From positions 7,378,001-7,442,000 of the forward strand of contig OZ024765.1 in the NCBI GenBank assembly GCA_964016885.1: a stretch of DNA of 64,000 nucleotides, in the 5' to 3' direction. A program made the position numbers and the translations under genes. The stretch comes from Eledone cirrhosa (Eukaryota). The notes below the pieces were generated by a model. The model had not been told where the DNA came from, did no database searches, and saw only the letters and a list, made by a program, of their open reading frames with translations. The first letter of the stretch is position 1, and each line of letters starts with the position of its first letter. Positions 12,501 through 24,500 of the stretch are shown here, piece by piece.

Positions 12501-15500
12501 TGTGCTTGTGGGAAGTTGGGTCTGCTGTACATATGTCACTGGATCGAGAGATATTTGGCTCCATGCAGTTGTACAGAAGACCTGCCTTCCCTTGCATACA
12601 AACCTACAGTCAGTAGGTACCTCTTAACCCAATATACACCCCACCCCACACACCCTCCCCATCCTCCCATTTCCGTTCACCGTGTAGGCGACACAATAAA
12701 AAGGGTCCCAGTCCACACTGTAAAGTGGTCATGTAGGAGACACAGTAAAAAGGCTCCCAGTCCACACTGTAAGGTGGTCGTGTAGGAGACACAGTAAAAA
12801 GGCTCCCAGTCCACACTGTAAGGTGGTCATGTAGGAGACACGGTAAAAAGGCTCCCAGTCCACACTGTAAGGTGGCCGTGTAGGAGACACGGTAAAAAGG
12901 CTCCCAGTCCACACTGTAAGGTGGCCGTGTAGGAGACACGGTAAAAAGGCTCCCAGTCCACACTGTAAAGTGGTCGTGTAGGAGACACGGTAAAAAGGCT
13001 CCCAGTTCACACTGTAAAGTGGTCGTGTAGGAGACACAATAAAAAGGCTCCCAGTCCACACTATAAGGTGGTCGTGTAAGAGACACAGTAAAAAGGCTCC
13101 CAGTCCACACTGTAAGGTGGCCGTGTAGGAGACACGGTAAAAAGGCTCCCAGTCCACACTGTAAAGTGGTCGTGTAGGAGACACGGTAAAAAGGCTCCCA
13201 GTCCACACTGTAAAGTGGTCGTGTAGGAGACACAGTAAAAAGGCTCCCAGTCCACACTGTAAAGTGGTCATGTAGGAGACACAGTAAAAAGGCTCCCAGT
13301 CCACACTGTAAAGTGGTCATGTAGGAGACACGGTAAAAAGGCTCCCAGTCCACACTGTAAGGTGGTCGTGTAGGAGACACAGTAAAAAGGCTCCCAGTCC
13401 ACACTGTAAAGTGGTCATGTAGGAGACACGGTAAAAAGGCTCCCAGTCCACACTGTAAGGTGGTCGTGTAGGAGACACAGTAAAAAGGCTCCCAGTCCAC
13501 ACTGTAAAGTGGTCATGTAGGAGACACGGTAAAAAGGCTCCCAGTCCACACTGTAAGGTGGCCGTGTAGGAGACACGGTAAAAAGGCTCCCAGTCCACAC
13601 TGTAAAGTGGTCGTGTAGGAGACACGGTAAAAAGGCTCCCAGTCCACACTGTAAAGTGGTCGTGTAGGAGACACAGTAAAAAGGCTCCCAGTCCACACTG
13701 TAAAGTGGTCATGTAGGAGACACAGTAAAAAGGCTCCCAGTCCACACTGTAAAGTGGTCATGTAGGAGACACGGTAAAAAGGCTCCCAGTCCACACTGTA
13801 AGGTGGTCGTGTAGGAGACACAGTAAAAAGGCTCCCAGTCCACACTGTAAAGTGGTCATGTAGGAGACACGGTAAAAAGGCTCCCAGTCCACACTGTAAG
13901 GTGGTCGTGTAGGAGACACGGTAAAAAGGCTCCCAGTCCACACTGTAAAGTGGTCATGTAGGAGACACAGTAAAAAGGCTCCCAGTCCACACTGTAAAGT
14001 GGTCATGTAGGAGACACAGTAAAAAGGCTCCCAGTCCACACTGTAAGGTGGTCGTGTAGGAGACACGGTAAAAAGGCTCCCAGTCCACACTGTAAAGTGG
14101 TCATGTAGGAGACACGGTAAAAAGGCTCCCAGTCCACACTGTAAAGTGGTCATGTAGGAGACACAGTAAAAAGGCTCCCAGTCCACACTGTAAAGTGGTT
14201 GTGTAGGAGACACAGTAAAAAGGCTCCCAGTCCACACTGTAAAGTGGCTGTGTAGGAGACACAGTAAAAAGGCTCCCAGTCCACACTGTAAGGTGGTCGT
14301 GTAGGAGACATGGTAAAAAGGCTCCCAGTCCACACTGTAAGGTGGTCGTGTAGGAGACACAGTAAAAAGGCTCCCAGTCCACACTGTAAGGTGGTCGTGT
14401 AGGAGACACAGTAAAAAGGCTCCCAGTTCACTGTAAAGTGGTCGTGTAGGAGACACAGTAAAAAGGCTCCCAGTCCACACTGTAAAGTGGTCGTGTAGGA
14501 GACAATAAAAAGGCTCCCAGTCCACACTGTAAAGAGGTCATGTAGGAGACACGGTAAAAAGGCTCCCAGTCCATACTGTAAAGTGGTTGTGTAGGAGACA
14601 CGGTAAAAAGGCTCCCAGTCCACACTGTAAAGTGGTTGTGTAGGAGACACGGTAAAAAGGCTCCCAGTCCACACTGTAAGGTGGTCGTGTAGGAGACACA
14701 GTAAAAAGGCTCCCAGTTCACTGTAAAGTGGTCGTGTAGGAGACACAGTAAAAAGGCTCCCAGTCCACACTGTAAAGTGGTCGTGTAGGAGACACAATAA
14801 AAAGGCTCCCAGTCCACACTGTAAAGAGGTCATGTAGGAGACACGGTAAAAAGGCTCCCAGTCCATACTCTAAAGTGGTTGTGTAGGAGACACGGTAAAA
14901 AGGCTCCCAGTCCACACTGTAAAGTGGTTGTGTAGGAGACACGGTAAAAAGGCTCCCAGTCCACACTGTAAAGTGGTTGTGTAGGAGACACAGTAAAAAG
15001 GCTCCCAGTCCACACTGTAAAGTGGTTGTGTAGGAGACACGGTAAAAAGGCTCCCAGTCCACACTGTAAGGTGGTCGTGTAGGAGACACAATAAAAAGGC
15101 TCCCAGTTCACTGTAAAGTGGTCGTGTAGGAGACACAGTAAAAAGGCTCCCAGTCCACACTGTAAGGTGGTCGTGTAGGAGACACAGTAAAAAGGCTCCC
15201 AGTCCACACTGTAAAGAGGTCATGTAGGAGACACAGTAAAAAGGCTCCCAGTCCACACTGTAAGGTGGTCGTGTAGGAGACACAGTAAAAAGGCTCCCAG
15301 TCCACACTGTAAAGTGGTCATGTAGGAGACACAGTAAAAAGGCTCCCAGTCCACACTGTAAGGTGGTCGTGTAGGAGACACAGTAAAAAGGCTCCCAGTC
15401 CACACTGTAAAGAGGTCATGTAGGAGATACAGTAAAAAGGCTCCCAGTCCTCACTGTAAAGTGGTTGTGTAGGAGACACAGTAAAAAGGCTCCCAGTCCA

Positions 15501-21500: not shown

Positions 21501-24500
21501 TAAAAAGGCTCCCAGTCCACACTGTAAGGTGGTCGTGTAGGAGACATGGTAAAAAGGCTCCCAGTCCACACTGTAAGGTGGTCATGTAGGAGACACGGTA
21601 AAAAGGCTCCCAGTCCACACTGTAAGGTGGTCGTATAGGAGACACGGTAAAAAGGCTCCCAGTCCACACTGTAAGGTGGTCATGTAGGAGACACGGTAAA
21701 AAGGCTCCCAGTCCACACTGTAAGGTGGCTGTGTAGGAGACACGGTAAAAAGGCTCCCAGTCCACACTGTAAGGTGGTCATGTAGGAGACACAGTAAAAA
21801 GGCTCCCAGTCCACACTGTAAGGTGGTTGTGTAGGAGACACAGTAAAAAGGCTCCCAGTCAACACTGTAAGGTGGTCGTGTAAGGGACACAGTAAAAAGG
21901 CTCCCAGTCCACACTGTAAGGTGGTCGTGTAGGAGACACGGTAAAAAGGCTCCCAGTTCACACTGTAAGGTGGTCGTGTAGGAGACACGGTAAAAAGGCT
22001 CCCAGTCCACACTGTAAAGTGGTCATGTAGGAGACACAGTAAAAAGGCTCCCAGTCCACACTGTAACGTGGTCGTGTAGGAGACACAGTAAAAAGGCTCC
22101 CAGTCCACACTGTAAGGTGGTCATGTAGGAGACACAGTAAAAAGGCTCCCAGTCCACACTGTAAGGTGGTCGTGTAGGAGACACAGTAAAAAGGCTCCCA
22201 GTCCACACTGTAAGGTGGTCGTATAGGAGACATGGTAAAAAGGCTCCCAGTCCACACTGTAAGGTGGTCGTGTAGGAGACATGGTAAAAAGGCTCCCAGT
22301 CCACACTGTAAGGTGGTCGTGTAGGAGACACGGTAAAAAGGCTCCCAGTCCACACTGTAAGGTGGTCGTGTAGGAGACATGGTAAAAAGGCTCCCAGTCC
22401 ACACTGTAAGGTGGTCATGTAGGAGACATGGTAAAAAGGCTCCCAGTCCACACTGTAAGGTGGTCGTGTAGGAGACATGGTAAAAAGGCTCCCAGTCCAC
22501 ACTGTAAGGTGGTCATGTAGGAGACATGGTAAAAAGGCTCCCAGTCCACACTGTAAGGTGGTCATGTAGGAGACATGGTAAAAAGGCTCCCAGTCCACAC
22601 TGTAAGGTGGTCATGTAGGAGACACAGTAAAAAGGCTCCCAGTCCACACTGTAAGGTGGTCGTGTAGGAGACATGGTAAAAAGGCTCCCAGTCCACACTG
22701 TAAGGTGGTCATGTAGGAGACATGGTAAAAAGGCTCCCAGTCCACACTGTAAGGTGGTCATGTAGGAGACACGGTAAAAAGGCTCCCAGTTCACACTGTA
22801 AGGTGGTCGTGTAGGAGACACAGTAAAAAGGCTCCCAGTCCACACTGTAAGGTGGTCATGTAGGAGACACGGTAAAAAGGCTCCCAGTCCACACTGTAAG
22901 GTGGTCGTGTAGGAGACACGGTAAAAAGGCTCCCAGTCCACACTGTAAGGTGGTCGTGTAGGAGACATGGTAAAAAGGCTCCCAGTCCACACTGTAAGGT
23001 GGTCATGTAGGAGACACGGTAAAAAGGCTCCCAGTCCACACTGTAAGGTGGTCATGTAGGAGACACAGTAAAAAGGCTCCCAGTCCACACTGTAAGGTGG
23101 TTGTGTAGGAGACACAGTAAAAAGGCTCCCAGTCAACACTGTAAGGTGGTCGTGTAAGGGACACAGTAAAAAGGCTCCCAGTCCACACTGTAAGGTGGTC
23201 GTGTAGGAGACACGGTAAAAAGGCTCCCAGTTCACACTGTAAGGTGGTCGTGTAGGAGACACGGTAAAAAGGCTCCCAGTCCACACTGTAAGGTGGTCGT
23301 GTAGGAGACACGGTAAAAAGGCTCCCAGTCCACACTGTAAGGTGGTCGTGTAGGAGACATGGTAAAAAGGCTCCCAGTCCACACTGTAAGGTGGTCATGT
23401 AGGAGACACGGTAAAAAGGCTCCCAGTCCACACTGTAAGGTGGTCGTATAGGAGACACGGTAAAAAGGCTCCCAGTCCACACTGTAAGGTGGTCATGTAG
23501 GAGACACGGTAAAAAGGCTCCCAGTCCACACTGTAAGGTGGCTGTGTAGGAGACACGGTAAAAAGGCTCCCAGTCCACACTGTAAGGTGGTCATGTAGGA
23601 GACACAGTAAAAAGGCTCCCAGTCCACACTGTAAGGTGGTTGTGTAGGAGACACAGTAAAAAGGCTCCCAGTCAACACTGTAAGGTGGTCGTGTAAGGGA
23701 CACAGTAAAAAGGCTCCCAGTTCACACTGTAAGGTGGTCGTGTAGGAGACACAATAAAAAGGCTCCCAGTCCACACTGTAAAGTGGTCGTGTAAGAGACA
23801 CAGTAAAAAAGCTCCCAGTCCACACTGTAAGGTGGTCATGTAGGAGACACAGTAAAAAGGCTCCCAGTCCACACTGTAAAGTGGTCGTGTAGGAGACACA
23901 GTAAAAAGGCTCCCAGTCCACACTGTAAAGTAGTTGTGTAGGAGACACAGTAAAAAGGCTCCCAGTCCACACTGTAAAGTAGTTGTGTAGGAGACACGGT
24001 AAAAAGGCTCCCAGTCAACACTGTAAGGTGGTCGTGTAAGGGACACAGTAAAAAGGCTCCCAGTCCACACTGTAAGGTGGTCGTGTAGGAGACACGGTAA
24101 AAAGGCTCCCAGTCCACACTGTAATGTAGTCGTGTAGGAGACATGGTAAAAAGGCTCCCAGTCCACACTGTAAGGTGGTTGTGTAGGAGACATGGTAAAA
24201 AGGCTCCCAGTCTACACTATAAATGTGGTTGGTGTTAGGAAGGGCATCTGCCAGGGAAACTTGCGTACAAGCGAGACACGGTCACCTGACTAATCTTGCC
24301 TAAAGTGGGACAAAACCGTCTAACCCATGCTAGCATGGAAGATGGGCATTAAACGATGGTGATGATGATGATGATCTATCACACCATATAAATATTTGTA
24401 AATATTTCCAATTCAAAATGTCTTATTTTGTCTTTTTCTTCTTCCACCAAACAGGTGCAAAGATTCTTTGTTTATCAAGAGAGAGAAGAAAGGGCTACGG

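What the first reader, a model, noticed from the sequence alone, without database searches (positions are those of the whole stretch)
12530..24375. An 11.5-kb satellite grown inside the 3' UTR of a single RTE retrotransposon copy
Seen: the left flank of the 49-bp array is the RTE ORF end and proximal UTR (cagtcagtaggtacctcttaacccaatatacacccc). The right flank is the distal UTR and (GAT)n tail. Sister copies at 34167-34980 and 55490-55928 carry only 2-3 such units at the same position, and related arrays lie at 5757-6748, 31952-32515 and 33002-33525. Inference: this LINE carries a short 3' UTR repeat, spreads it by retrotransposition, and it then expands from about 2 to about 235 copies. Seed, intermediate and satellite stages are all visible in one gene.
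Basis: partly seen in the sequence, partly recalled or inferred. Interest (0 to 1): 0.72.

Follow-up and report, generated by a model that had tools for sequence, protein, structure and literature searches.

The report
Retrotransposon tail grown into 11.5-kb array
A 49-base repeat that a common jumping gene carries twice in its tail is present about 236 times in one old, broken copy, likely because it multiplied on the spot after insertion; dozens of other copies show the same growth, mostly on the smaller chromosomes, so this is one more case of a known route to satellite-like DNA.

Summary
Observation confirmed. A 49-bp array (12681-24222, 236 units) sits between the ORF end and the distal UTR/(GAT)n tail of a 5'-truncated LINE, all on one strand, probably in an intron of a dynein-heavy-chain-like gene. 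Intact relatives (APE-RT-PHD ORF) carry two units there. The monomer equals the interval between the two identical 18-bp cores of one sub-lineage's UTR (48/49 bases). The locus is not unique: 63 other arrays of 6 or more units end at the same junction, and one has 263 units. That sub-lineage gives 2% of 29,260 two-unit tails but 49 of the 63 arrays. Expansion was seen in 1/59 sampled copies on chromosomes of 94 Mb or more and 10/36 on smaller ones. Caveats: 4.4 kb of the length is one 99.9%-identical block duplication (recent event or assembly error); the right flank has six older-lineage bases, so a chimera is possible; the three 'intermediate' arrays in the window have other units and lack LINE flanks. 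The route is published (Ogre 3' UTRs, reptile SINE satellites), and this scan noted it before at other loci of this genome.

The parts
12533..12629 (+). 3' end of the LINE ORF (about 30 codons, with a 2-bp insertion); the copy is 5'-truncated here
   Evidence: tblastn to residues 682-724 of the L044 ORF; alignment to 29 genomic copies
12630..12680 (+). Proximal 3' UTR (C-rich), short 'A1' sub-lineage type
12681..24222 (+). 49-bp tandem array, 236 units, 48 distinct monomer types, 3.8% mean difference from its consensus, 264 of 424 differences at two CpG sites
13824..18176 (+). First copy of a 4,353-bp (89-unit) block inside the array
18177..22627 (+). Second copy of that block: 5 substitutions and one extra 98-bp (2-unit) piece; recent duplication or assembly error
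   Evidence: longest identical run 35 monomers against at most 4 in 30 shuffles
24223..24354 (+). Distal 3' UTR with a private deletion of about 15 bp and a patch of six older-lineage bases
24355..24375 (+). (GAT)n tail; no target-site duplication of 6 bp or more found
12396..12530 (-). Head-to-head fragment of a LINE 3' UTR from another sub-lineage (about one and a half worn units); a separate insertion
12141..12230 (+). Candidate exon upstream of the array (host gene; inferred from splice signals and an open frame)
24455..24535 (+). Candidate exon downstream of the array, in a frame compatible with the upstream one (weak: donor site unclear)
34167..34978 (-). Sister LINE 3' end, 'B' sub-lineage, 2 units, not expanded
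55490..55928 (-). Sister LINE 3' end, 'A2' sub-lineage, 2 units plus a partial one
2871..3320 (-).
5760..6743 (+). Related 48-bp array, 20 units, no LINE ORF end or distal UTR attached
31954..32495 (+). Related, degenerate 48-bp array with a 132-bp higher-order unit, no LINE flanks
33002..33529 (+). Related 48-bp array, 11 units, no LINE flanks

Best explanation
The array lies inside the 3' UTR of a 5'-truncated LINE copy and likely grew there after insertion, by slippage or unequal exchange between the two near-identical repeats that this LINE sub-lineage carries in its tail, followed by larger block duplications. Shown: the anatomy, the two-unit state of the family, the monomer equal to the core-to-core interval, block structure inside the array, many other arrays of 5-263 units at the same position. 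Inferred: the order of events; that the perfect 18-bp core is what makes this sub-lineage expand; that the small-chromosome bias reflects recombination rate. The array is most likely neutral by-product DNA.
For: (1) Two-unit copies of this sub-lineage share an exact 18-bp core 49 bp apart; the interval between the cores matches the array consensus at 48 of 49 bases (11 copies), and the first and last units keep the family's distinct unit-1 start and unit-2 end. (2) Long copies with APE-RT-PHD ORFs have two units; of the 29 best genomic matches to the left flank, 21 have 1-3 units and 8 have 4-70. (3) Arrays are younger or more uniform than their hosts: non-CpG difference 1.6% within the array against 5% (7/134) for the left flank. 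(4) Arrays carry private variants: 2.1 differences per unit within and 4.9 between 39 arrays; one monomer variant follows the host copy's sub-lineage (7 of 11 against 1 of 29 arrays, p=1e-4), as expected if each array grew from its own host's units. (5) Nested block duplications of 29, 37 and 89-91 units. (6) Seed quality: exact runs of 15 bp or more between the two units occur in 27 of 99 A-type and 0 of 99 other copies; A-type is 658 of 29,260 two-unit tails but 49 of 63 arrays (read by eye); on chromosomes of 61 Mb or less 0 of 19 B-type against 10 of 36 A-type copies are expanded (p=0.01). (7) Context: 57 of 61 placed arrays lie on the 27% of sequence in chromosomes of 61 Mb or less; in a sample chosen by the last unit and distal UTR only, 1 of 59 against 10 of 36 (p=2e-4).
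Against: The distal UTR has 6 of 6 older-lineage bases, against 0-2 in the 35 other copies sorted as the same left type (5 of them only partly scorable), and its best genomic matches mostly have the older left type. No target-site duplication ties the two ends together. 38% of the length rests on one 99.9% block duplication whose five differences include no CpG transition. Two of four samples of the chromosome effect are not significant alone (0/20 against 2/16, p=0.19; 0/10 against 4/19, p=0.27), and long arrays do occur on big chromosomes (263 units on C4, 46 on C3). Age confounds the sub-lineage effect: most of the 29,260 tails appear to be young. No recombination map or second individual was available.
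Confidence: 0.75

Rival explanations
1. The array joins two different LINE copies: recombination or gene conversion through the shared unit fused the left part of a newer-type copy to the right part of an older-type copy, or a ready-made array was copied in from another locus.
For: Left flank is newer-type at 7 of 8 diagnostic characters while the distal UTR is older-type at 6 consecutive sites; right flank is 11% from the newer majority, at the top of the range; no target-site duplication. The same 74-bp minisatellite sits on both sides of the array at 97% identity and in none of 364 other loci, which shows local copying of repeats.
Against: The three diagnostic sites nearest the array on the right and the last one are newer-type, so the older bases form an internal patch; two unexpanded copies (L005, L030) show a similar, weaker mosaic; across arrays the monomer variant follows the host sub-lineage.
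Confidence: 0.13
2. The array is real but its length is inflated by the assembly: the 4.35-kb block appears twice by error or as two stacked alleles, and the true array is about 145 units (7 kb). This changes the size, not the origin.
For: 5 substitutions in 4,353 bp, all giving monomer types seen once, 4 of 5 transversions, whereas ordinary variation is CpG-dominated.
Against: The copies also differ by a two-unit insertion in register; smaller nested duplications of the same kind occur; a 263-unit array exists elsewhere. Five events are too few for the spectrum to count.
Confidence: 0.2
3. Arrays were made during retrotransposition (reverse-transcriptase stutter) or moved as arrays by a source element with a long repeat.
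For: Source elements do change their UTR repeats: 11 of 12 intact young copies carry a 112-bp duplication of unit plus junction, and older sources carry 2-4 worn units.
Against: Array lengths run from 5 to 263 with private variants; the array is more uniform than its flanks are old; 11.5 kb is about three times the whole element; insertion-time events would not favour small chromosomes this strongly, since A-type copies are only 1.7-fold denser there.
Confidence: 0.05
4. The satellite came first and the LINE captured two units from it.
For: Related 48-bp arrays without LINE flanks exist in the window; a unit-plus-junction homologue lies in the 5' UTR of a sister LINE family, so the module has moved before.
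Against: All LINE sub-lineages seen carry worn, unequal units in fixed order, and the 49-bp arrays fetched end in the LINE distal junction with matching sub-lineage marks.
Confidence: 0.04

Closest known systems
Ogre LTR-retrotransposon 3' UTR tandem repeats expanding to satellites in Lathyrus sativus (PMC7004042, passages read) and PisTR-A of pea (cited in PMC9659126, passages read)
   Same: Short tandem repeat in a retroelement 3' UTR; dispersed copies carry few units; some expand in place; expansion depends on chromosomal position.
   Different: Here the carrier is a non-LTR element with only two units; expansion favours small chromosomes and (here) an intron, not primary constrictions; arrays seen reach 13 kb.
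SINE-derived satellites of squamate reptiles (PMC10702118, abstract and Discussion read)
   Same: Arrays with retroposon sequence at the ends, a full range of lengths, certain primary duplications favoured, positional bias (subtelomeric, stronger for long loci).
   Different: There the first duplication arises in a SINE copy; here it is already in the LINE source element, so every insertion is a seed.
LINE 3'-derived satellites: chicken HinfI (CR1), common cetacean satellite (L1), Drosophila 18HT (HeT-A/TART) (table and passage in PMC9659126; originals not read)
   Same: Monomer comes from the 3' part of a non-LTR element.
   Different: Those are inferred from monomer similarity; here the array still has both element flanks and there are dozens of parallel cases.
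Octopus RTE-2_OV (PMC9115989, passages read)
   Same: Single ORF of about 1,100 residues with endonuclease and RT, microsatellite 3' end.
   Different: RTE-2_OV is described with a C2H2 finger and a mostly microsatellite 3' UTR; this family has a PHD finger after the RT and a structured UTR with two units. Sequence identity was not tested.
Human VNTRs enriched in subtelomeres (PMC7608644, passages read)
   Same: Long-unit tandem repeats concentrate where meiotic recombination is reported to be high.
   Different: Not seeded from one LINE UTR; GC over 60% there, about 50% here.

Membership tests
RTE-clade non-LTR retrotransposon | Single long ORF with apurinic endonuclease and reverse transcriptase | tested here: met
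   L404, which has the same UTR layout, has a 1,111-residue frame with Exo_endo_phos and RVT_1 over Pfam cut-offs; database relatives are ~1,050-residue APE-RT-PHD proteins
RTE-clade non-LTR retrotransposon | 3' end in a microsatellite-like tail rather than poly(A) | tested here: met
   (GAT)n in the window and in relatives; feature as described in PMC6007223 and PMC9115989 (passages)
RTE-clade non-LTR retrotransposon | RT domain groups with named RTE elements in a tree | not tested
   No named reference RTs were returned (one search names are uninformative); the label RTE is recalled and architectural
RTE-clade non-LTR retrotransposon | No separate ORF1 | tested here: inconclusive
   Upstream of the L404 ORF lie AT-rich tandem monomers; one copy inspected, no systematic ORF search
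RTE-clade non-LTR retrotransposon | Target-site duplication of about 7-15 bp | tested here: inconclusive
   None of 6 bp or more for this copy; old copy abutting another insertion
Retroelement-UTR-derived tandem array (Ogre/PisTR-A kind) | Unit present as a short repeat at a fixed position in dispersed elements | tested here: met
   29,260 exact two-unit tails, 0 in reversed control; long copies
Retroelement-UTR-derived tandem array (Ogre/PisTR-A kind) | Expanded arrays still embedded in the element, with a range of lengths | tested here: met
   5-263 units with LINE flanks
Retroelement-UTR-derived tandem array (Ogre/PisTR-A kind) | Element present without arrays in related species (direction of origin) | not testable with these tools
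   No relatives held for this genome
Classical satellite DNA | Very long arrays (hundreds of kb) in heterochromatin | tested here: not met
   11.5 kb between candidate exons; chromatin state not testable
Classical satellite DNA | Family-wide homogenisation across loci | tested here: not met
   2.1 differences per unit within against 4.9 between arrays

The most novel reading that the evidence does not exclude
A short-lived LINE sub-lineage whose two tail repeats happened to share a perfect 18-bp core planted thousands of identical satellite seeds across the genome, and whether a seed grows is set by the chromosome it landed on (about 2% on large, about 28% on small chromosomes). That is a replicated natural experiment that separates seed quality from genomic context in the birth of tandem arrays. 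In its boldest form the unit is a regulatory module taken from the 5' UTR of a sister LINE family, so the arrays would be amplified promoter pieces inside genes.
Probability: 0.35. Interest if true: 0.6.

Novelty: new member of a known kind. Interest (0 to 1): 0.36.

Why it matters
How the first few tandem copies of a satellite arise, and why some loci then grow, is usually inferred after the fact. Here the same two-unit seed sits at thousands of sites in graded sub-lineages, so expansion rate can be measured against repeat perfection, insertion age and chromosome class. This one locus adds little beyond being among the longer 49-bp arrays; the value lies in the family-wide census. The process is published for other elements and was noted repeatedly by this scan in the same genome.

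Tried and rejected
Hairpin-driven slippage: two units fold no better than shuffles (z=-1.36, 15 of 200 as good). Twin-priming inversion for the minus-strand piece at 12396-12530: rejected, it is a 3' UTR of another sub-lineage. Target-site duplication search: none. Larger segmental duplication around the array: only the 74-bp minisatellite is shared. Sequencing runs: no RNA holder listed, so nothing on expression; contigs of four runs laid on the left flank confirmed unique sequence 12110-12316 in three runs of one sample but were swamped by repeat copies beyond it; array length was not tested with reads. Host-gene exons gave no Pfam hit alone, no word-index hit and only low Atlas scores; the profile search found P0121. 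A Pfam endonuclease search returned other LINE families: 14 fetched, none of this family. An exact 91-base left-flank pattern gave one match and was useless as a denominator. A check of monomer variants in two-unit copies caught only 9 copies and is uninformative. Ten fixed-position 10-kb stretches were too variable (0-85% minisatellite) to compare chromosome classes. Literature: nine searches plus one search listed no paper on an RTE 3'-UTR tandem array in a cephalopod; listings only, library limited to open papers; supplements (e.g. the repeat library of PMC13282606) were not seen and could hold this family.
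Full report
Observation. The array is at 12681-24222, period 49, 235.9 copies; cutting at a fixed anchor gives 236 units, 48 monomer types, 3.8% mean difference from the consensus. Upstream lie about 95 bp of LINE ORF end and a C-rich proximal UTR; downstream lie the distal UTR and a (GAT)n tail ending at 24375. Both flanks align in order and orientation to the sister copies at 34.2-35.0 kb and 55.5-55.9 kb and to a third at 2.9-3.3 kb. The window is G000:C26:7378001-7442000, on a 23.8-Mb contig of a 3.0-Gb genome; that it is an octopod is my recall of the repeat landscape and the wording of earlier scan notes, not a test. 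Exons from 32.8 kb onward match P0121, a dynein-heavy-chain-like protein (DHC_N2, AAA_6). Candidate exons at 12141-12230 and 24455-24535 bracket the array in compatible frames, so the array is probably intronic and sense to that gene; P0121 does not reach these exons, so this is inference.

The element. Of 16 long copies fetched, 12 have 1,031-1,129-residue open frames and 3 are broken copies; these 15 show the same order ORF end, proximal UTR, two units, distal UTR; one had no match. L404 has endonuclease, RT and PHD domains over Pfam cut-offs, as do database relatives. Single ORF and microsatellite tail fit the RTE clade (PMC6007223, PMC9115989, passages), but no tree with named references was built.

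How the monomer arises. In 11 two-unit copies closest to the window's left flank the two units differ in their first halves but share an exact 18-bp core 49 bp apart; the core-to-core interval matches the array consensus at 48 of 49 bases. One slip or unequal exchange between the cores would yield exactly this monomer, leaving the distinct unit-1 start and unit-2 end at the array edges, as seen. Later growth went by blocks: identical runs at lags of 29, 37, 89-91 and 120 units, longest 35 monomers against at most 4 in 30 shuffles. The largest is a tandem copy of 13824-18176 at 18177-22627 with 5 substitutions and one two-unit insertion. With the octopus rate quoted in PMC13282606 (0.0036 per million years; parts 1-2 of 3 read; borrowed, rough) the left flank (7/134 non-CpG differences) is about 14 million years old and the block duplication about 0.15 million years, if real. 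It could be an assembly error; then the array would be about 145 units.

The locus is one of many. Exact patterns give 29,260 tails with two or more units and 63 with six or more at exact 49-bp spacing (the window's own array is not among them because its last core has a substitution). Fetched arrays run from 5 to 263 units; the longest, on C4, is longer than this one. Monomers differ by 2.1 bases within and 4.9 between 39 arrays, and a variant at unit position 39 occurs in 7 of 11 arrays whose host has the short first unit and 1 of 29 with the full first unit (9 unclassified arrays left out; p=1e-4). Each array thus looks built from its own host's units.

Two factors predict expansion. Sub-lineage: the A-type last unit is 658 of 29,260 tails but 49 of 63 arrays (strict motif, read by eye); exact runs of 15 bp or more between units occur in 27 of 99 A-type and 0 of 99 other copies; on chromosomes of 61 Mb or less 0 of 19 B-type and 10 of 36 A-type copies are expanded (p=0.01). 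Age is a confounder for the young majority, and 48-bp arrays of other sub-lineages are missed by the 49-bp pattern. Chromosome: 57 of 61 placed arrays lie on chromosomes of 61 Mb or less, 0.073 against 0.002 per Mb, while A-type copies are only 1.7-fold denser there. In the sample (136 matches, 100 listed, 95 examined; 5 on C2 and C4 not fetched, 36 on C22-C28 and scaffolds not listed) 1 of 59 copies on C1-C7 and 10 of 36 on C8-C22 have six or more units (p=2e-4). The left-flank sample agrees (0/16 against 6/12, p=0.002); two smaller samples point the same way without significance (0/20 against 2/16; 0/10 against 4/19); samples overlap slightly. A link to recombination is inference, by analogy with human subtelomeric VNTRs (PMC7608644, passages) and reptile SINE satellites (PMC10702118, Discussion). 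The region is generally prone to tandem growth: minisatellites cover 34% of the window without this array, and units of several match dispersed repeats in other loci.

Against a clean single-copy story. The left flank is newer-type at 7 of 8 diagnostic characters, but the distal UTR has six consecutive older-type bases, framed by newer-type bases on both sides; the 35 other copies sorted as this left type have 0-2, and the best genomic matches of the right flank mostly have older left types. A conversion patch or a transitional source fits (L005 and L030 are weaker mosaics); a fusion of two copies through the array is not excluded, and there is no target-site duplication to decide. The window's small arrays (5760-6743, 31954-32495, 33002-33529) have 48-bp units about 70-80% like the 49-mer and no LINE flanks, so they are not stages of this array.

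Origin of the module. A sister family (64% protein identity; 7 intact copies seen) has no units at its 3' end, yet carries a homologue of the last unit plus the junction directly upstream of its ORF. The tail module may derive from a 5' UTR, or the reverse; function is untested.

Comparison and verdict. Growth of retroelement 3'-UTR repeats into satellites is published for Ogre elements (PMC7004042, passages), LINE-3'-derived satellites are listed in PMC9659126 (passages), and SINE-derived arrays with retained ends in PMC10702118. My searches listed no paper on this cephalopod family (listings only, supplements not seen). Earlier notes of this scan describe the same process with 48-bp units and much larger arrays in this genome, and a small-chromosome bias for ORF-derived arrays (unchecked AI notes). 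Verdict: a real, well-preserved example of a known kind; new member; interest 0.36, carried mostly by the family-wide census.

Noticed in passing
window 10022-10669 and 24745-25459: The same 74-bp minisatellite (97% identical, same strand) lies in two introns on either side of the array and in none of 364 other loci examined; suggests local copying of a minisatellite within one gene.
   Followed up: partly
L392-L399 (about 1200-1330) and L209:6360-6655: A sister LINE family with intact 1,024-residue ORFs has no 3' units but carries the unit-plus-junction motif and ~90-bp monomers in its 5' UTR.
   Followed up: partly
L404-L415, 3' UTR: 11 of 12 intact young copies carry a 112-bp duplication of unit plus junction, i.e. 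the source element's tail repeat is still changing; L404 also has ~200-bp AT-rich tandem monomers upstream of the ORF.
   Followed up: no
L222-L223 (G000:C4:245.82-245.83 Mb): A 263-unit array of the same monomer in a LINE tail whose distal end switches to another sub-lineage's terminus.
   Followed up: partly
window 32832 onward, + strand: Exons of a dynein-heavy-chain-like gene (DHC_N2, AAA_6) run through the window and beyond.
   Followed up: partly
window 47429-54877: A 3.5-kb GC-rich block (49-52 kb, integrase-like words in one frame) is flanked on both sides by arrays of the same 32-bp unit; possibly a mobile element with tandemly expanded ends.
   Followed up: no
window 35470-35822, 38026-39187, 27217-27733, 8334-9448: Other minisatellites whose units match dispersed repeats or LINE coding sequence in other loci: tandem growth of transposon pieces is general here.
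   Followed up: partly
L220-L221 (G000:C2:129.336-129.339 Mb): A 58-unit array of a different 49-bp variant that ends in a LINE distal UTR and grades upstream into very worn units.
   Followed up: no
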